Virus record (IMG/VR): IMGVR_UViG_3300029104_000056 | Location: 1 to 6,743 of that record | Reading direction: 5' to 3' (one strand) | Source of the DNA: a virus | Taxonomy: Duplodnaviria; Heunggongvirae; Uroviricota; Caudoviricetes | DNA: 6,743 nt | Part shown: positions 314-6,743 of the stretch, in pieces | How positions within the stretch are numbered: the first letter of the stretch is position 1 | Layout: the number at the start of each line of letters is the position of its first letter | Program-made: the position numbers and the translations under genes | The notes under the pieces: model-generated | What the model saw: only the letters and a program-made list of their open reading frames with translations | Database searches by the model: none | Told to the model about the DNA's origin: nothing

Positions 314-1807
314 TGGCAATTATCGATGATGTGATAGGCGTGTTTTCCCCCGGATGGAAAGCAGCCAGACTGCGTTCAAGGGCATTAATCATGGCCTATG
401 AGGCGGTGAAAACGACCCGGACACATAAAGCCCGGCGGGAAAATCGCTCTGCTGATCAGCTCAGTAAATACGGTGCGGTTTCCCTGCGGGAGCAGGCCCG
501 TTTTCTGGATATCAATCATGACCTGGTGATTGGTGTGTTTGACAAGCTTGAAGAGCGGGTGATTGGTGCCAGGGGAATTATTGTGGAGCCTCAGCCATTA
601 CGAAAAAACGGGGAAATGGCGGCAGAGCTGGCTGCGGATATCCGCCGGTTGTGGGCTGAATGGTCGGTCAGTCCGGATGTGACAGGGCAGTATACCCGTC
701 CCGTGCTTGAGCGTTTACTGCTGCGGACCTGGCTGCGGGATGGTGAAGTGTTTGCGCAGATGGTCAGTGGGGCGGGAAATGGTCTGGAACGGACGGCGGG
801 AGTGCCATTCTGGCTTGAAGCGATGGAGCCGGATTTTGTTCCCATGCGCAGTGATGAATCCGCCGGGCTGAATCAGGGGGTTTTTCTTGATGAGTGGGGA
901 AGACCGAAAAAATATCTGGTTTATAAAAATTATCCGGTCAGCGGCCGGCAGAGTGATACGAAAGAAATCGTTGCCGGAAAAATGATCCACCTGAAGTTCA
1001 CTCGTCGTCTGCATCAGACGCGAGGCTCATCCATGTTATCGGGGGTGCTGATGCGGATCAGTGCCCTTAAGGAGTATGAGGATGCGGAACTGACGGCAGC
1101 GCGTNNNNNNNNNNNNNNNNNNNNNNAAAGGGGACGGGCAGGACTATGAAGATCCTGGGATCAAAGAGACCGAGCGGGAAGTCCATATCACCCCGGGTAT
1201 TATTTATGACGATTTGCGCAAGGGCGAGGATATCGGCATGGTCAAATCTGACCGTCCTAACCCCAATCTTGAAACCTTTCGTAACGGTCAGCTGCGTGCA
1301 GTAGCTGCAGGCAGTCGTCTGAGTTTTTCCAGTGCGGCGCGTAACTATAACGGTACCTACAGTGCCCAGCGGCAGGAGCTGGTCGAGTCCACCGACGGGT
1401 ATCTGATCCTGCAGGACTGTTTTATTGGCGCGGTAACCCGCCCTGTGTACCGGACATGGCTGAATATGGTGGTTGCGGCAGGTCTGCTGAAAATTCCGGC
1501 AGATGTGGAGATGAAAACGCTATATAACGCGACGTATTCCGGTCCGGTGATGCCGTGGATCGATCCGGTTAAGGAAGCTGAAGCCTGGAGAATTCAGATC
1601 CGGGGTGGTGCAGCGACAGAATCCGACTGGGTTCGGGCCGGAGGGCGCAATCCGGATGAGGTCAAACGTCGCCGCAAGGCTGAAATTGATGAAAACAGCA
1701 GACTGGGGCTGGTCTTTGATACTGACCCCGTCAACGATAAAGGAGGAAACAGTGCCGGAACTGAACGACAGCATCAGCGCGACACCGAAAGCCAGCATGA
1801 AGAATAA
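313..1807 (+). CDS. Phage portal protein (interrupted by an N-run at 1105-1126)
   Basis: ATG 313 overlaps the W stop (TAATG) with GCGAGG at 302-307 upstream. A 278-aa ORF runs into the N-run, and coding resumes at 1127 in a different frame through to TAA 1805-1807 (...GGRNPDEVKRRRKAEIDENSRLGLVFDTDPVNDKGG...). Size (about 500 aa) and position between the W-like gene and the prohead protease fit a portal. The frame change across the Ns reflects unknown gap length, not necessarily a real frameshift. Confidence 0.8.
1105..1126. other. Run of 22 N (assembly or masking gap) inside the portal gene
   Basis: Directly visible. The coding frame differs on the two sides, so the true gap length is unknown. 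Confidence 0.95.
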
Positions 1808-3768
1808 ATCCTGGTTCAGGATGCAGGCTGGGGGGCCGGGTGACGCAGATATTTATATTTATGATGAGATTGGTTTCTGGGGCGTTACCGCGAAGCAGTT
1901 TGTCAGCGAACTGAATGCACTTGGTGATATCACCCACATTAATCTCCATATCAATTCACCGGGTGGCGATGTCTTTGAAGGCATCGCCATTTTTAATGCC
2001 CTGAAAAATCAGGGGGCGACCATTACCGTGTATGTGGATGGCGTTGCCGCCTCGATGGCATCCGTGATTGCGATGGCCGGTGATACGGTCATTATGCCGG
2101 AAAATGCCTTCATGATGATCCATAAGCCATGGGGATTCAGTGGCGGGGATGCTGAGGATATGCGCAGTTATGCCGATTTGCTGGATAAAGTCGAATCGGT
2201 ACTGTTGCCAGCCTATGCGCAGAAAACCGGAAAAACCACCGATGAAATTGCCGCCATGCTGGCGGATGAAACCTGGATGTCCGGTGCTGAATGTCTGGCA
2301 CACGGATTTGCTGACCAGGTGACACCCGCTGTTAAGGCAATGGCATGTATTCAGTCAAAACGTACAGAGGAATTTAAAAAGATGCCGGAATCCATTCGAA
2401 ATATGATTACTCCGCCACGCAACAGTGCTCCACGCGTACAGGATGATGGACCTGCAGCCTCCCGGACGCCAGTGCAGGCAGCAGCACCCGTGGTGGATGA
2501 AAACAGCATCCGTGCGCAGGTCCTGGCAGAGCAAAAAGCGCGTGTAAACGGTATTAATGATCTGTTTGCCATGTTTGGCGGGCGTTATCAGTCGTTGCAG
2601 GCTCAGTGTCTTGCCGATCCTGAATGTTCGCTGGAGCAGGCCCGCGAAAAGCTGTTGAACGAGATGGGGCGCGAGTCCACGCCATCCAATAAAAATACCC
2701 CGGCTCATATTTATGCCGGTAACGGTAATTTTGTGGGGGACGGGATCCGCCAGGCGCTGATGGCGCGCGCCGGGTTTGAAAAAACTGAACGTGATAATGT
2801 CTACAACGGGATGACCCTGCGTGAATATGCCCGTATGTCACTGACTGAACGTGGTATTGGTGTTTCCAGTTATAACCCGATGCAGATGGTCGGTGCGGCG
2901 TTCATACACAGTACGTCTGACTTCGGTAATATTCTGCTGGATGTTGCGAACAAAGCCATTCTGCAGGGCTGGGAAGATGCCCCTGAAACCTATGAACAGT
3001 GGACGCGGAAAGGTCAGTTGTCTGATTTTAAAATTGCCCATCGTGTGGGTATGGGGGGCTTCAGTGCTCTGCGTCAGGTGCGTGAAGGGGCAGAATATAA
3101 ATACGTCACCNNNNNNNNNNATGGCACTGGCGACCTATGGCGAGCTGTTCAGTATCACCCGTCAGGCCATTATCAATGATGATCTGAATATGCTGACCGA
3201 TGTCCCGATGAAGCTGGGCCGTGCGGCGAAATCCACTATTGCCGATCTGGTTTATGCCATTCTGACGTCTAACCCGAAAATCTCCACAGATAATGTAAGT
3301 CTGTTCGATAAAGCGAAACATGCAAACGTACTGGAGAGCGCGGCAATGGACGTGGCATCGCTGGATAAAGCCCGCCAGTTGATGCGCGTTCAGAAAGAGG
3401 GTGAGCGTCATCTGAATATTCGTCCTGCGTTCGTACTGGTACCGACGGCGATGGAGTCTGTTGCTAACCAGGTCATTCGCTCCTCAAGTGTCAAGGGGGC
3501 TGACATTAACGCCGGTATTATTAACCCGGTGAAAGATTTTGCGACCGTTATTGCAGAGCCTCGTCTTGATGATAACAGCCAGACCACCTTCTACCTGGCT
3601 GCGTCCAAAGGCTCCGATACGATTGAAGTGGCTTATCTCAACGGTGTGGATACGCCATATATTGATCAGATGGAGGGCTTCAGTGTGGATGGCGTGACAA
3701 CGAAAGTGCGTATTGACGCTGGTGTTGCGCCAGTTGATCACCGCGGCCTGGTGAAATGTACGGCGTAA
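1752..3768 (+). CDS. ClpP-like prohead protease fused to a linker/scaffold-like segment and a major capsid protein domain (interrupted by an N-run at 3111-3120)
   Basis: Start is GTG 1752 with AGGAGG at 1741-1746 and a 5-nt spacer, lying inside the 3' end of the portal gene. The N-terminal domain has ClpP-type motifs: VDGVAASMAS (Ser codon 2052-2054) and MMIHKPWGFSGG (His codon 2121-2123). A Pro/Ala-rich and predicted helical segment follows (about 2400-2700), then a capsid-like C-terminal region ending KCTA with TAA 3766-3768. The frame changes across the 10-N run, but coding sequence resumes immediately at 3121. Confidence 0.8.
3111..3120. other. Run of 10 N (assembly or masking gap) inside the capsid domain
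   Basis: Directly visible. The frame differs on the two sides (codons at 3108-3110 before, 3121-3123 after). Confidence 0.95.
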
Positions 3769-3854: not shown

Positions 3855-4178
3855 ATGGCAAAGAATTTTGTAGAAGAAGGAAAAACGGTGGCGATTGTTG
3901 CAAGTGCAGCCATCAGCAGCGGAGATCTGGTGCAGGTGGGTGATGTTTTTGCGGTGGCGCTGACCGATATTCCACAGGGAGAAACAGGCGACGGCATAAC
4001 CGAAGGTGTGTTTATGCTGCCTAAGCTGAAAACGGATGACATGAAAACGGGTAAGAAGGTTTATCTGAAGTCAGGAAAAGTTCAGCTGACTAACAGCGGC
4101 TCTGATCCGCTGGTCGGGGTTGTCTGGGCAGATGCCGGAACCAGTGCAGAAGAAGTGCCGGTAAAACTCAATGTCTGA
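3855..4178 (+). CDS. Small head-associated protein, DUF2190-like (possible decoration or cement protein)
   Basis: ATG 3855 has GGAG at 3845-3848 with a 6-nt spacer. The 107-aa product MAKNFVEEGKTV...GDGITEGVFMLPK... resembles the DUF2190 proteins found next to capsid genes. The ORF track's upstream ATG at 3810 lies inside the terminator and lacks an RBS. Stop is TGA 4176-4178. Confidence 0.55.
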   Translation: MAKNFVEEGKTVAIVASAAISSGDLVQVGDVFAVALTDIPQGETGDGITEGVFMLPKLKTDDMKTGKKVYLKSGKVQLTNSGSDPLVGVVWADAGTSAEEVPVKLNV

Positions 4179-4446
4179 TCCCTTTTCCCGGCTGGCAGCG
4201 CGTATGGATGCGATCACGGTCAGAAAGATGGGAAAGACAGCCTCGATTAATGATGTCGATATGACTGTGATCCCGGGAGAAACACTGGCAGAGCTGAATG
4301 CTCTGTCCGGACCTGCGGTCTCTCTGGTGGTGTTTTCTTCGGGATACCGCCCACGGCGCGGGGATCGCGTTGTTTATGACGGACAACAATGGACGGTCAC
4401 ACGGCATGAACGTTTTAACGGTAAGCCAATGATCTTTATTGAGTAA
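4171..4446 (+). CDS. gpFII-like head-tail joining protein
   Basis: The 91-aa product has an N-terminus (FSRLAARMDAITVRKMGKTASIN) and an RRGD...W.V.R segment (PRRGDRVVYDGQQWTVTRHE) that parallel lambda gpFII as I recall it. It overlaps the upstream gene by 8 nt. Stop is TAA 4444-4446. Confidence 0.7.
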   Translation: MSDPFSRLAARMDAITVRKMGKTASINDVDMTVIPGETLAELNALSGPAVSLVVFSSGYRPRRGDRVVYDGQQWTVTRHERFNGKPMIFIE

Positions 4447-4457
4447 TGAGGTGTGGG

Positions 4458-5036
4458 ATGAAGGGGCTTGAGAATGCCATCCGCAATCTGAACAGCCTTG
4501 ATACCCGTATGGTGCCACAGGCCAGCGCATGGGCGATAAACCGTGTGGCACAGAAAGCGGTCTCGGTTGCCACCCGGCAGGTTGCCGGGAATACCGTTGC
4601 GGGAGATAACCAGGTGAAAGGGATCCCCCTGAAACTGGTACGTCAGCGTGTCCGGGTGTTTAAAGCCAGTCCGTCAGGAAAAATGACGGCCAGGATCCGC
4701 GTTAACCGGGGCAATCTGCCCGCCATTAAGCTGGGGACAGCCCGGGTCAGACTGGCCCGGCGTGGTGGAAAACTGCAGTACCGTGGCAGTGTGCTGAAGG
4801 TGGGTAAATATCTTTTCCGGGATGCGTTTATTCAGCAACTGGCGAATGGTCGCTGGCATGTGATGCGACGTATTGATGGCAAAAATCGTTACCCCATTGA
4901 TGTGGTGAAAATCCCGCTGTCCGGACCGCTGACACAGGCATTTGAAGATGCCCGCGACCACATCATTGCTGCGGAAATGCCGAAACAGCTGGGGTATGCA
5001 CTGAAACAACAACTGAGGTTATGGCTGACCCGATGA
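4458..5036 (+). CDS. gpZ-like tail completion protein
   Basis: Strong resemblance to lambda gpZ: KGLENAIRNL, WAINRVA, IRVNRGNLPAIKLG, AFIQQLANGRWHVMRRIDGKNRYPIDVVKIP, LGYALKQQLR. Start ATG 4458 is preferred, with GAGG at 4448-4451 and a 6-nt spacer, matching the lambda MAIKGLE start. The in-frame ATG at 4446 (TAATG overlap) is the alternative. Stop is TGA 5034-5036. Confidence 0.85.
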   Translation: MKGLENAIRNLNSLDTRMVPQASAWAINRVAQKAVSVATRQVAGNTVAGDNQVKGIPLKLVRQRVRVFKASPSGKMTARIRVNRGNLPAIKLGTARVRLARRGGKLQYRGSVLKVGKYLFRDAFIQQLANGRWHVMRRIDGKNRYPIDVVKIPLSGPLTQAFEDARDHIIAAEMPKQLGYALKQQLRLWLTR

Positions 5037-5444: not shown

Positions 5445-6188
5445 ATGACCACACCAAATCCACTGGCAAAAACGAAAGGTGCGGGAACGACGTTCTGGAT
5501 GTATACCGGCAAGGGCGATGCGTTTGTGAACCCTTTATCGGACACTGACTGGCTGCGTCTTGCGATGGTGAAGGATCTGCAACCTGGCGAAATGACCGCT
5601 GATGCAGAAGATGACACTTATCTCGATGATGAAGATGCAGACTGGAAAACGACAACCCAGGGGCAGAAATCAGTCGGTGATACTTCGGCGACGCTGGCCT
5701 GGCGTCCGGGGGACAGCGGGCAGAAAAAACTGGTTCAGTTGTTCGACTCCGGTGAAGTCTGCGCGTTTCGTATCAAATATCCCAACGGTACTGTTGATGT
5801 TTTCCGTGGCTGGCTGAGTTCACTGGGTAAAACCATTGCTTCAAAAGACGTGATGACCCGCACAGTGAAAATCAGCGGTGTGGGGCGTCCGTATCTGGCA
5901 GAGGAAGGCACTGAAACCGTGGGCGTTACCGGGCTGACGGTGGCACCGGCATCTGCCAGTGTAAAAGTGGGAGCAACCACCACGCTGACCTTTACAGTAA
6001 AACCTGACGGAGCCAGTGACAAAGCGATCAGTGTGCATTCGACAGATCCACAGACTGCCACGGTGACCCTGAACGGGCTTGTGGCCACGGTGAAAGGCGT
6101 GAAGCAGGGCAGTGTCAGCATTGTGGGCATGACTTCTGACGGCGATTTTGTGGCAGTGGCTACGGTGGCTGTCAGCGCCGCAGGTTAA
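5445..6188 (+). CDS. gpV-like major tail protein with a C-terminal Ig-like domain
   Basis: AAGGAGGTGG at 5433-5442 precedes ATG 5445. The product is close to lambda gpV: KGAGTT.W.Y.G.GD...NPLSD.DW.RLA.VKDL.PGE.TA, the acidic YLDDEDADW block, PNGTVDVFRGW.SS.GK, TRTVK..GVGRP. The C-terminal part (about 5925-6185) is rich in T/V/S/A with alternating beta-like pattern, as in the gpV Ig-like domain. Stop is TAA 6186-6188. Confidence 0.9.
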   Translation: MTTPNPLAKTKGAGTTFWMYTGKGDAFVNPLSDTDWLRLAMVKDLQPGEMTADAEDDTYLDDEDADWKTTTQGQKSVGDTSATLAWRPGDSGQKKLVQLFDSGEVCAFRIKYPNGTVDVFRGWLSSLGKTIASKDVMTRTVKISGVGRPYLAEEGTETVGVTGLTVAPASASVKVGATTTLTFTVKPDGASDKAISVHSTDPQTATVTLNGLVATVKGVKQGSVSIVGMTSDGDFVAVATVAVSAAG

Positions 6189-6208: not shown

Positions 6209-6232
6209 GCCCCGGTTATCCGGGGCTTTTTT
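6209..6232 (+). terminator. Intrinsic terminator after the major tail gene
   Basis: Perfect 7-bp GC-rich stem GCCCCGG (6209-6215), loop TTAT, CCGGGGC (6220-6226), followed by TTTTTT at 6227-6232. Confidence 0.7.
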
Positions 6233-6248
6233 GCAGGTGGAGAACATG

Positions 6249-6635
6249 ATGTTTCTGAAACAGGGCACGTTTAATTATGAAAAGCAGTCCGTGGTGCTCA
6301 GTGAGCTGTCCGGGCTGCAGAGAATTGAATATCTGGCGTTTGTTCAGCAGCGAACGGCAAAGTTTGATGCCGAAGAGGGAGAACTGCCGGAGGCTGAACG
6401 ACAGATTGCTTTTCTGCGGATGGGGATGGATATCAATGCCTGGCTGGTTTCCCGCTCACTGTGGAATGCGGAACAGTCTCAGGATGTTGAGACGCTTTGC
6501 GCATCCGTTATTACAACATGGTCGTATGATGCCCTGGGAACGGGGGCGGAGATGGTTCTGTCGCTGAGCGGTATGGGAGCCATTGAGAATGCCGGGGATT
6601 TGGAGCATGAGGTGCTGACGCCGGAAAAGTCCTGA
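6249..6635 (+). CDS. gpG-like tail assembly chaperone
   Basis: The N-terminus MFLK...VVLSELSGLQRIEYLAF parallels lambda gpG (MFLK...TLSELSALQRIEHLAL), and LSLSGM matches RLSGM. GGAG at 6239-6242 is 6 nt from ATG 6249; ATG 6246 is an in-frame alternative. Stop is TGA 6633-6635. Confidence 0.85.
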   Translation: MFLKQGTFNYEKQSVVLSELSGLQRIEYLAFVQQRTAKFDAEEGELPEAERQIAFLRMGMDINAWLVSRSLWNAEQSQDVETLCASVITTWSYDALGTGAEMVLSLSGMGAIENAGDLEHEVLTPEKS

Positions 6636-6743
6636 CGCGGGAAATGCAGTTTGTCATGCGGCTTGCCCGGGAGTTCAGGCGGGCAGACTGGCGGCGGATG
6701 CTGTCGGAAATGTCGGCCACTGAGCTTGGTGAGTGGGGCGATT
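6611..6743 (+). CDS. gpT frame: start of the tail assembly protein, likely expressed as a G-T frameshift fusion (3' end lies outside the window)
   Basis: The -1 frame reads GADAGKVLTREMQFVMRLAREFRRADWRRMLSEMSATELGEWGD and is open to the window edge. It overlaps the last 25 nt of G and sits where T sits in lambda. Confidence 0.6.
6623..6629 (+). promoter_or_regulatory. Candidate -1 frameshift slippery site for the gpG-gpT fusion
   Basis: GGAAAAG read as G GAA AAG in the G frame, placed just before the G stop as lambda's G GGA AAG is. The -1 frame is open only from 6611 (a TGA at 6608-6610 closes it upstream) and runs to the window end. Confidence 0.5.

What the first reader, a model, noticed from the sequence alone, without database searches (positions are those of the whole stretch)
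6611..6646. G-T programmed -1 frameshift with a non-canonical slippery heptamer
Lambda-like phages make the gpGT fusion by -1 slippage at G GGA AAG near the end of G. Here the homologous position reads G GAA AAG (6623-6629). The A-site Lys codon can still slip from AAG to AAA, but the P-site codon is GAA, which would re-pair poorly on GGA. That predicts A-site-dominated slippage, possibly with lower efficiency. The -1 frame also contains an in-frame ATG at 6644-6646 just after the G stop, so T could in principle start on its own.
Basis: partly seen in the sequence, partly recalled or inferred. Interest (0 to 1): 0.5.

Follow-up and report, generated by a model that had tools for sequence, protein, structure and literature searches.

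The report
Known-type phage G-T tail frameshift site
This is the ordinary lambda-style ribosomal frameshift that fuses two phage tail-assembly chaperone genes; its slightly off-consensus slip sequence GGAAAAG is shared by a large group of relatives and is already annotated as the slip site in phage N15, so it is real but not new.

Summary
G (6249-6635, PF06894) ends CCG GAA AAG TCC TGA, and the heptamer G_GAA_AAG lies at 6623-6629. The -1 frame is open from 6611, carries an ATG at 6644-6646 and encodes a gpT homologue.

The heptamer sits at exactly the codon where lambda has G_GGA_AAG. A conceptual G-T fusion aligns with lambda gpGT across the junction in one collinear alignment.

The window is a cdtI/mEp460/phi458-type lambdoid prophage, found in about a third of complete E. 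coli genomes.

GGAAAAG is conserved in every relative I retrieved that carries GAA_AAG at the junction. This holds down to roughly 30-40% G identity and includes phi80, N15 and Gifsy-2, although the G C-terminus around it is hypervariable.

The N15 GenBank record already labels GGAAAAG "slippery sequence for -1 translational frameshift". Gifsy-2 is annotated as a G+G' frameshift hybrid. The finding is therefore an unannotated member of a known kind.

The first G of the heptamer never varies, although it is the third base of Pro, Ala, Val or Leu codons. That argues the P-site tRNA-Glu re-pairs on GGA through a central G-U, so slippage is not purely A-site. The ATG at 6644 has no Shine-Dalgarno sequence and is not conserved.

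An SD-like GAGG lies 10 nt upstream and is specific to this clade. It may be a stimulator, but this is unproven.

The parts
5445..6188 (+). Major tail protein gene (gpV homologue with a C-terminal Ig-like domain). It is the upstream neighbour expected for a G/GT pair.
   Evidence: Pfam Phage_TTP_12 E 6e-66 and Big_2. The 744-nt CDS is annotated in mEp460, Ayreon, phi458 and E. coli strain 190.
6209..6232 (+). Terminator-like GC hairpin followed by a T run, between V and G.
   Evidence: Consensus scan: 7 GC pairs, 4-nt loop, TTTTTT. The same element is annotated as a terminator in mEp460, Ayreon and N15.
6249..6635 (+). Gene G, the tail assembly chaperone (128 aa; an alternative ATG lies at 6246). 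It is the 0 frame of the frameshift.
   Evidence: PF06894 Phage_TAC_2 E 2e-39. PGAP names it 'phage tail assembly chaperone G'. An SD-like AGGTGG lies 8 nt upstream of the ATG.
6608..6610 (+). Last stop codon (TGA) in the -1 frame. It sets the 5' limit of the region in which a -1 shift can be productive.
   Evidence: Translation of the -1 frame.
6609..6614 (+). SD-like GAGGTG whose GAGG core ends 10 nt 5' of the heptamer. Candidate dnaX-like upstream stimulator, unproven.
   Evidence: In the window's clade, anti-SD complementarity peaks at -5.4 to -6.7 kcal/mol at 6-10 nt spacing. The peak is absent in the phi80/N15 and lambda groups. The synonymous-codon resampling test is only suggestive.
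6623..6629 (+). Slip site G_GAA_AAG. tRNA-Lys re-pairs AAG->AAA and tRNA-Glu re-pairs GAA->GGA.
   Evidence: the only in-frame Z_ZZN in the overlap. Homologous to lambda G_GGA_AAG. Conserved in 348 loci. The same heptamer is annotated as the slippery sequence in N15.
6633..6635 (+). G stop codon (TGA), one codon after the heptamer.
   Evidence: The short-tail layout 'AAG YCC TGA' is shared by the clade.
6629..6743 (+). T-domain coding sequence in the -1 frame (VLTREMQFVMRLAREFRRADWRRML...). It runs off the window end. The full T part is 114 aa in identical prophages, giving a 241-aa GT fusion.
   Evidence: PF06223 Phage_tail_T E 4.5e-15 on the complete homologue. The fusion aligns collinearly with lambda gpGT, E 1e-41.
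6644..6646 (+). In-frame ATG in the T frame, used as the T start by PGAP and the mEp460 annotation. Probably an internal Met codon of GT.
   Evidence: No SD at 4-10 nt spacing. Not conserved in relatives.

Best explanation
Ribosomes translating G mostly terminate at TGA 6633-6635 and make the 128-aa chaperone gpG. A small fraction slip back one base on G_GAA_AAG (6623-6629), with tRNA-Glu in the P site and tRNA-Lys in the A site. tRNA-Lys (single E. coli isoacceptor, mnm5s2UUU) re-pairs from AAG to AAA. tRNA-Glu re-pairs from GAA to GGA with G:C, a central G-U, and A:U. Translation then continues in the -1 frame (next codon GUC 6629-6631) through the T domain, giving a 241-aa gpGT fusion. By analogy with lambda, gpGT links the tape-measure protein to the major tail protein during tail assembly.

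Shown here: the gene order, the frame relation, homology across the junction, and conservation of the heptamer including its first G. Inferred: that slippage occurs, its efficiency (probably at or below lambda's ~3-4%), and the roles of both tRNAs. The SD-like GAGG 10 nt upstream may raise efficiency as the SD-like element does in dnaX; that step is speculative.
For: - G is PF06894 and the T frame is PF06223, lying between a gpV homologue and a tape-measure gene.
- The conceptual fusion aligns with lambda gpGT in one collinear alignment, with the slip-site Lys aligned...TPEK|VLTREMQF against ...SAGK|VFDGELSF, E 1e-41.
- The G C-terminus is hypervariable except (T/S)PEK(S/P).
- At the DNA level GGAAAAG is kept in relatives down to about 30-40% G identity: L094, L433, L418, phi80, N15 and Gifsy-2.
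- At the homologous codon other relatives carry the accepted heptamers G_GGA_AAG (lambda, Stx phages, Serratia) or A_AAA_AAG (CP-1639).
- Heptamer base 1 is G in all 348 loci across CCG, GCG, GTG and CTG codons, while neighbouring third positions vary at 0.96-1.31 bits.
- The -1-frame residues V-L-x-x-E-x-x-F directly after the heptamer are kept through synonymous changes (GTC CTG against GTA TTA), in a stretch that is non-coding in the 0 frame.
- N15 annotates GGAAAAG as the slip site, and Gifsy-2 is annotated as a G+G' hybrid.
- A G-U for A:U replacement in the P site costs only about 5 kJ/mol in the dnaX system (PMC6787027).
- GAA->GGA re-pairing by G:U has been proposed for the mycobacteriophage GGGGGAA sites (PMC10885494).
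Against: - No protein data exist for this phage.
- In a purified E. coli system G_GAA_AAG without stimulators gave mainly 0-frame product (PMC6924986).
- The A_AAG tetramer alone is near background in vivo (PMC4066793).
- I found no conserved downstream structure, and the upstream SD-like element is not statistically secure. How a useful level of GT is reached is therefore unexplained.
- The invariance of base 1 rests on few independent lineages and on a query-biased sample.
Confidence: 0.62

Rival explanations
1. A -1 frameshift does make GT here, but only tRNA-Lys slips (A_AAG tetranucleotide or NNA_AAG hexanucleotide mode, as in IS1222 G_CGA_AAG). tRNA-Glu does not re-pair usefully.
For: - A_AAG is the most shift-prone tetramer in E. 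coli, and NNA_AAG sites are used naturally (PMC4066793; PMC5009743).
- The GAA->GGA shift creates a second-position non-Watson-Crick pair, described as unfavourable (PMC6924986).
- Some relatives appear to use one-tRNA sites next to a stop: GCA_AAA_TAG in L110/L111, and G_GAA_AAG_TAG in L418.
Against: - Base 1 of the heptamer is invariant G across four different codon families while nearby third positions vary. A pure one-tRNA model predicts no constraint at that base.
- Tetramer sites need a strong downstream stimulator to rise above background, and none is conserved here.
Confidence: 0.22
2. T is made only as a separate protein from ATG 6644 (or 6656), for example by re-initiation after G terminates 8 nt upstream. 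No functional frameshift occurs. This is how PGAP, mEp460, Ayreon and phi458 annotate the locus.
For: - The ATG is in frame, 8 nt after the G stop.
- Database records annotate T with its own start.
Against: - No SD at usable spacing: +0.7 kcal/mol at 4-10 nt, against -6.5 for G and -10.2 for V.
- The homologous codon is ATT, CTT, CGT, CGA, CAT or CTG in relatives, and Gifsy-2/L109 have no ATG in the first ~17 codons.
- Amino-acid conservation in the -1 frame starts at the heptamer, upstream of the ATG.
- From established knowledge (Levin, Hendrix & Casjens 1993, cited from memory), T sequences in lambda are expressed only as gpGT.
Confidence: 0.06
3. The site is a relic. The prophage is decaying, and the heptamer persists only through recent common descent.
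For: Most copies are prophages that are 96-100% identical. The window has broken portal and capsid ORFs.
Against: - The ORF breaks are caused by runs of N in the window, not by mutations. The same genes are intact in strain 190 and in mEp460.
- Viable isolated phages (mEp460, Ayreon, phi458, cdtI, phi80, N15) carry the same heptamer.
- The heptamer is kept across lineages with only about 30-55% G identity.
Confidence: 0.03

Closest known systems
Phage N15 genes 14/15 (G/GT homologues), GenBank NC_001901
   Same: Identical heptamer GGAAAAG (GCG_GAA_AAG) at the homologous codon, explicitly annotated 'slippery sequence for -1 translational frameshift'. Same V-terminator-G-T-H gene order.
   Different: N15 G is only about a third identical to the window's G. 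The 0 frame continues for 5 more codons after the heptamer (CCC TCG CCA GTG AGC TGA) instead of 1. N15 has no SD-like element 10 nt upstream (phi80/N15 group).
Salmonella prophage Gifsy-2 STM1039 / STM1041.1n
   Same: 55% identical G. Same CCG_GAA_AAG TCC TGA junction and the same GAGG 10 nt upstream. Annotated as 'part of G+G' frameshift hybrid protein; lambda gpT homolog'.
   Different: The T frame has no ATG near the junction (KVLNNELHFVRQLAREF), whereas the window has ATG 6644.
Phage lambda G/GT (Levin, Hendrix & Casjens 1993; Xu, Hendrix & Duda 2004, 2013, 2014)
   Same: Same Pfam families, same gene order, same -1 relation, and the slip codon at the same aligned position. The function of G and GT is summarised in PMC5009743.
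   Different: Lambda has the canonical G_GGA_AAG, whose P-site tRNA-Gly re-pairs with only a wobble change. The window has GAA (Glu) with a central G-U after the shift. Lambda's G continues 5 codons past the site. G identity is 35%.
Phage phi80 gp13/gp14
   Same: GCG_GAA_AAG at the homologous codon. All 80 IMG/VR relatives keep it, with GCG or GTG as the preceding codon.
   Different: Long-tail layout as in lambda and N15. No SD-like element at -10. The frameshift is not annotated in the record.
E. coli dnaX -1 frameshift
   Same: A_AAG A-site slippage by the single tRNA-Lys. An SD-like sequence 10 nt 5' of the heptamer (AGGGAG-N10-A_AAA_AAG against GAGG-N10-G_GAA_AAG) (PMC6924986).
   Different: dnaX has a fully canonical heptamer and a strong 3' stem-loop and shifts at about 50-80%. 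No conserved 3' structure is found here.
NNA_AAG hexanucleotide sites (IS1222 G_CGA_AAG, B. subtilis cdd A_CGA_AAG; Licznar et al. 2003)
   Same: An NNA codon followed by AAG, with tRNA-Lys taking the last A of the preceding codon (PMC5009743).
   Different: Those sites have no P-site re-pairing potential and rely on stimulators. Here base 1 is conserved so that G-GA can pair with tRNA-Glu. I could not read the original paper, so I do not know which shiftiness class it assigns to GAA.

Membership tests
Lambda-type tail assembly chaperone G/GT programmed -1 frameshift | Two overlapping ORFs between the major tail protein gene and the tape-measure gene | tested here: met
   gpV homologue at 5445-6188, G at 6249-6635, T frame from 6611. 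The tape-measure gene follows T in identical prophages and in mEp460.
Lambda-type tail assembly chaperone G/GT programmed -1 frameshift | Upstream ORF homologous to gpG and downstream ORF homologous to gpT | tested here: met
   PF06894 E 2e-39 and PF06223 E 4.5e-15. The fusion against lambda gpGT gives E 1e-41 and is collinear across the junction.
Lambda-type tail assembly chaperone G/GT programmed -1 frameshift | Downstream ORF in the -1 frame, open across the end of G, without a conserved start codon of its own | tested here: met
   The -1 frame is open from 6611. ATG 6644 lacks an SD and is replaced by non-start codons in relatives.
Lambda-type tail assembly chaperone G/GT programmed -1 frameshift | Strictly canonical X_XXY_YYZ heptamer in the overlap | tested here: not met
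   The heptamer is G_GAA_AAG, so XXY = GAA and is not of the XXY form. No canonical heptamer exists in 6611-6635. This lowers 'textbook heptamer', not 'G/GT frameshift': see the N15-type row.
Lambda-type tail assembly chaperone G/GT programmed -1 frameshift | N15-type variant heptamer GGAAAAG at the lambda-homologous codon | tested here: met
   Identical to the heptamer annotated as slippery in N15. Also present in phi80 and Gifsy-2.
Lambda-type tail assembly chaperone G/GT programmed -1 frameshift | A G-T fusion protein is made at a low fixed ratio and is required for tail assembly | not testable with these tools
   Needs western blotting, mass spectrometry or a reporter assay, plus genetics.
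One-tRNA A_AAG / NNA_AAG slippage (IS1222 type) | In-frame A_AAG with tRNA-Lys able to re-pair on AAA | tested here: met
   A_AAG at 6626-6629, in frame.
One-tRNA A_AAG / NNA_AAG slippage (IS1222 type) | No requirement for P-site re-pairing (base 1 of the heptamer free to vary) | tested here: not met
   Base 1 is G in 348 of 348 loci, across CCG, GCG, GTG and CTG codons. The sample is query-biased and contains few independent lineages.
One-tRNA A_AAG / NNA_AAG slippage (IS1222 type) | Strong downstream stimulator (hairpin or pseudoknot 5-9 nt 3' of the site) | tested here: not met
   MFE z-scores -1.87 and +0.79. Alifold consensus -8.4 kcal/mol with covariation term -0.26.
dnaX-type stimulation by an internal Shine-Dalgarno-like sequence | SD-like sequence about 10-14 nt 5' of the heptamer | tested here: met
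   GAGG(TG) at 6609-6614, with 10 nt to the heptamer. Clade-wide anti-SD peak at 6-10 nt spacing.
dnaX-type stimulation by an internal Shine-Dalgarno-like sequence | The SD-like sequence is selected beyond what the encoded amino acids require | tested here: inconclusive
   Synonymous resampling gives P 0.03-0.33 in most lineages and 0.65-0.76 in three. My Fisher combination of one representative per lineage, taken from the values, gives about 0.03 ignoring shared ancestry. The Glu codon is also conserved as GAA-C, which is not SD-like, in phi80/N15.

The most novel reading that the evidence does not exclude
The G_GAA_AAG phages form a natural, evolutionarily maintained set of -1 sites in which the P-site tRNA re-pairs with a second-position G-U, on the very heptamer used as a 'non-slippery' control in vitro. 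In the cdtI/Gifsy-2/window clade the weakness would be compensated by a dnaX-like internal Shine-Dalgarno sequence exactly 10 nt upstream. phi80 and N15 would compensate in another, still unknown, way. If true, the family would offer matched natural variants (G_GGA_AAG, G_GAA_AAG, A_AAA_AAG, A_AAA_stop at one homologous codon) for dissecting how the P-site pairing energy and upstream rRNA pairing set a low fixed frameshift ratio.
Probability: 0.3. Interest if true: 0.4.

Novelty: new member of a known kind. Interest (0 to 1): 0.2.

Why it matters
Practically, the T gene of this very common E. coli prophage family (about a third of complete genomes) is annotated everywhere as a stand-alone gene with an arbitrary ATG. 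The real product is almost certainly a 241-aa G-T fusion, so the annotation should be a joined CDS with ribosomal slippage.

Conceptually the gain is small, because the G-T frameshift and this heptamer are already on record (N15, Gifsy-2). The comparison does add two points. The first G of G_GAA_AAG appears to be under selection. One clade carries a positioned SD-like element. Both give cheap, testable predictions about near-cognate P-site re-pairing in bacterial -1 frameshifting.

Tried and rejected
- **Downstream stimulatory structure.** Single-sequence folds of 6630-6743 and 6595-6700 gave z -1.87 and +0.79. RNAalifold on 9 divergent junctions gave -8.4 kcal/mol with essentially no covariation. 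Rejected as unsupported.
- **Transcriptional slippage.** The A run is only 4 nt long, so I rejected this from established knowledge that such slippage needs much longer homopolymer runs.
- **Other slip sites in the overlap.** There are none. A_AAG at 6626 is the only in-frame Z_ZZN in 6611-6635.
- **Decaying prophage.** The split portal and capsid ORFs suggested this, but they are caused by N runs at 1105-1126 and 3111-3120.
- **Literature.** Licznar et al. 2003 could not be retrieved. I did not attempt Xu et al. 2004, Levin et al. 1993 or Ravin et al. 2000, which I assumed were not in the held library, so what I say about them beyond citing reviews rests on memory. Full-text searches for GGAAAAG found only the Peng et al. 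2019 control construct. The PRFect supplement held nothing relevant.
- **Genome scan.** The genome-contig scan gave only 11 loci. A viral scan with the Symbiopectobacterium G found nothing. The lambda-G scan returned only near-identical lambda copies.
- **SD-like element.** It looks striking by eye, but given the encoded amino acids it is only weakly improbable. I kept it as a hypothesis, not a finding.

Full report
**Observation**

The sequence is as described. The 0 frame of the ORF ending at 6635 reads ...GAG GTG CTG ACG CCG GAA AAG TCC TGA, so GGAAAAG occupies 6623-6629 in X_XXY_YYZ register. The -1 frame has its last stop at TGA 6608-6610. It is open from 6611 to the end of the window and contains ATG 6644-6646.

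GGAAAAG as a string is unremarkable: 4 copies on both strands against 1.0 +/- 0.96 expected. The copy at 6623 is different. It holds the only in-frame Z_ZZN motif in the 25-nt overlap where a -1 shift could be productive.

**What the locus is**

The window is the head-tail region of a lambdoid phage of the cdtI/mEp460/Ayreon/phi458 group.
- It is 99.6% identical to phi458 over V-G-T.
- The G-T stretch is found in 1,845 of 5,426 complete E. coli genomes.
- The ORFs are portal, ClpP-protease/capsid fusion, cement protein, Z, U, V (tail tube with an Ig-like domain), then G.
- G (6249-6635, 128 aa) matches PF06894, the lambda gpG family, at E 2e-39.
- The complete -1-frame product from an identical prophage matches PF06223, gpT, at E 4.5e-15.
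- The tape-measure gene follows.

No database record annotates ribosomal slippage here. T is given its own start at ATG 6644 (PGAP, mEp460) or at a later ATG (Ayreon, phi458).

**Homology of the site**

Lambda reads GCG GGA AAG TGT..., with G_GGA_AAG followed in the -1 frame by V-F-D-G-E-L-S-F-A-L-K-L-A-R-E-M. The window reads CCG GAA AAG, followed by V-L-T-R-E-M-Q-F-V-M-R-L-A-R-E-F. A conceptual fusion made by re-reading G6629 is 241 aa long. It aligns with lambda gpGT in a single alignment that crosses the junction collinearly, with the slip-site lysines aligned (E 1e-41).

**Comparative evidence**

G proteins 54-93% identical to the window's have a hypervariable last ~20 residues but keep (T/S)PEK(S/P)-stop.

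I collected 445 sequences (the window plus loci) by protein homology, from IMG/VR, GTDB genomes, metagenomes and named phages. The heptamer at the end of G was:

| Heptamer | Loci |
|---|---|
| GGAAAAG | 348 |
| GGGAAAG | 85 |
| G_GCA_AAA + TAG | 7 |
| AAAAAAG | 1 |

Two further loci were anomalous. The sample is biased by my queries, so these counts are not frequencies.

GGAAAAG is present in:
- the window's clade;
- a 66%-identical E. coli clade (L116);
- Salmonella prophages (L098-L109, and Gifsy-2 at 55% identity);
- Symbiopectobacterium L094 (GCG GAA AAG TAT TAA);
- metagenomic L433 and L418 (CTG GAA AAG);
- the whole phi80 group (GCG or GTG GAA AAG);
- N15.

At the same codon, Serratia/Symbiopectobacterium prophages have CCG_GGA_AAG TCT TAG, lambda and Stx phages have GCG_GGA_AAG, and CP-1639 has TCA_AAA_AAG. 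The site is therefore a homologous recoding position at which several heptamers interchange. Their common element is A_AAG, or A_AAA next to a stop.

**Already on record**

The N15 GenBank entry carries a misc_feature 'slippery sequence for -1 translational frameshift' at 10027-10033. I read that stretch as GGAAAAG. Gifsy-2's T homologue is annotated 'part of G+G' frameshift hybrid protein' and cites cdtI and N15 as relatives. The non-canonical heptamer is thus a known variant, and this window is an unannotated member.

**Mechanism: one tRNA or two**

*For a weak site:*
- In a reconstituted E. coli system AUG_GAA_AAG was chosen as the unfavourable control against G_GGA_AAG and gave mainly 0-frame product (PMC6924986).
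- A_AAG alone is near background in vivo unless a pseudoknot is added (PMC4066793).

*Against a purely one-tRNA event:*
- Base 1 of the heptamer is G in every locus with GAA_AAG, although it is the third base of Pro (CCG), Ala (GCG), Val (GTG) or Leu (CTG) codons.
- The third positions of the four preceding codons vary at 0.96-1.31 bits.
- With G at base 1 the shifted P-site codon is GGA. It pairs with the tRNA-Glu anticodon as G:C, G-U, A:U.

*Supporting literature:*
- Thermodynamic work on dnaX variants gives a modest penalty (about 5 kJ/mol) for A:U->G-U in the P site (PMC6787027).
- G:U-mediated GAA->GGA re-pairing has been suggested for the mycobacteriophage GGGGGAA sites (PMC10885494).

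I therefore favour tandem slippage with a near-cognate P-site pairing. The independent lineages are few, so this remains an inference.

**Stimulators**

I found no convincing downstream structure. MFE z-scores were -1.87 and +0.79. The alifold consensus was -8.4 kcal/mol with no covariation.

Upstream, GAGG(TG) at 6609-6614 ends exactly 10 nt before the heptamer, the spacing of the dnaX SD-like stimulator.
- Across the 23 distinct upstream sequences of the window's 'short-tail' clade, anti-SD complementarity peaks at -5.4 to -6.7 kcal/mol for 8-mers ending 6-10 nt upstream.
- At that spacing it is about 0 in phi80/N15, about -1.4 in lambda, and positive in the canonical Serratia group.
- The Glu at that position is conserved as an amino acid in phi80/N15 too, there as GAA-C.
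- Resampling synonymous codons gives only P 0.03-0.33 per lineage, with three lineages at 0.65-0.76. A Fisher combination of one representative per lineage, worked by hand from those values, gives about 0.03 ignoring shared ancestry.

I keep this as a hypothesis.

**Can T start on its own?**

- ATG 6644 is 8 nt after the G stop, but it has no SD at 4-10 nt (+0.7 kcal/mol, against -6.5 for G and -10.2 for V).
- The homologous codon is ATT (L100, L098), CTT (Gifsy-2, L109), CGT (L094), CGA (L433), CAT (L418) or CTG (lambda, phi80, N15). Gifsy-2 and L109 have no ATG in the first ~17 codons.
- The -1-frame residues between the heptamer and this ATG are conserved as V/A-L-x-x-E through synonymous changes (GTC CTG in the window, GTA TTA in L094), in a stretch that is non-coding in the 0 frame.

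T is therefore translated from the heptamer onwards, as a fusion. Some re-initiation at ATG 6644 in this particular phage cannot be excluded.

**Verdict**

This is a real, functional-looking recoding site of a textbook kind, using a heptamer variant already annotated in N15. The 'A-site-dominated' and 'own start' ideas are not supported. Interest is low. The residual value lies in correcting the annotation of a very common prophage and in the testable predictions about base 1 and the SD-like element.

Noticed in passing
window 1105-1126 and 3111-3120: Two runs of N (22 and 10 bases). The second replaces 21 nt of the intact homologue. Together they split the portal gene (313-1149 / 1214-1807) and the ClpP-protease/major-capsid fusion gene (1605-3179 / 2851-3768) into out-of-frame pieces. 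Both genes are intact in E. coli strain 190 and in mEp460. This is a masking or assembly artefact, not pseudogenisation.
   Followed up: yes
window 6209-6232: A strong terminator-like hairpin (7 GC pairs, then TTTTTT) lies between the major tail gene V and G. The same element is annotated as a terminator in mEp460, Ayreon and N15. It may lower G/GT/H expression relative to V.
   Followed up: partly
window 1605-3768: The head protease (ClpP-like), the scaffold region and the major capsid protein are encoded as one fusion ORF in this phage group. PGAP names it 'ClpP-like prohead protease/major capsid protein fusion protein', 2,028 nt in strain 190.
   Followed up: partly
window ~1183: Mosaic boundary. 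Left of ~1183 the window is not matched by the mEp460/cdtI group at megablast level. It is 100% identical to prophages in E. coli UTAK-6 and SCPM-O-B-9504.
   Followed up: partly
L418 (metagenome RWZF01000055.1) and L110/L111 (IMG/VR): In some relatives the slip codon is directly followed by the G stop: CTG_GAA_AAG_TAG in L418 and GCA_AAA_TAG in L110/L111. This suggests P-site slippage of tRNA-Lys at a 'shifty stop' as another solution at the same homologous position.
   Followed up: no
proteins P0032 and P0049 (single-member clusters): Two database proteins are in-frame G-T fusions created by internal deletions that join G to the T frame (for example ...SYDA|GKVLTREMQF...). They are either rare mutants or assembly errors.
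   Followed up: no
L095-L097 (Serratia marcescens, Symbiopectobacterium): These loci have the same short-tail junction layout as the window but with the canonical heptamer (CCG_GGA_AAG TCT TAG), and they lack an SD-like element at -10. The window type could derive from, or give rise to, this form by a single G<->A transition.
   Followed up: partly
window 4074-4080 (+), 4182-4188 (-), 4812-4818 (-): Three further GGAAAAG copies. The + strand copy lies in the cement-protein ORF in GGA_AAA_G register, which is not a slip register. I take them as chance occurrences.
   Followed up: partly
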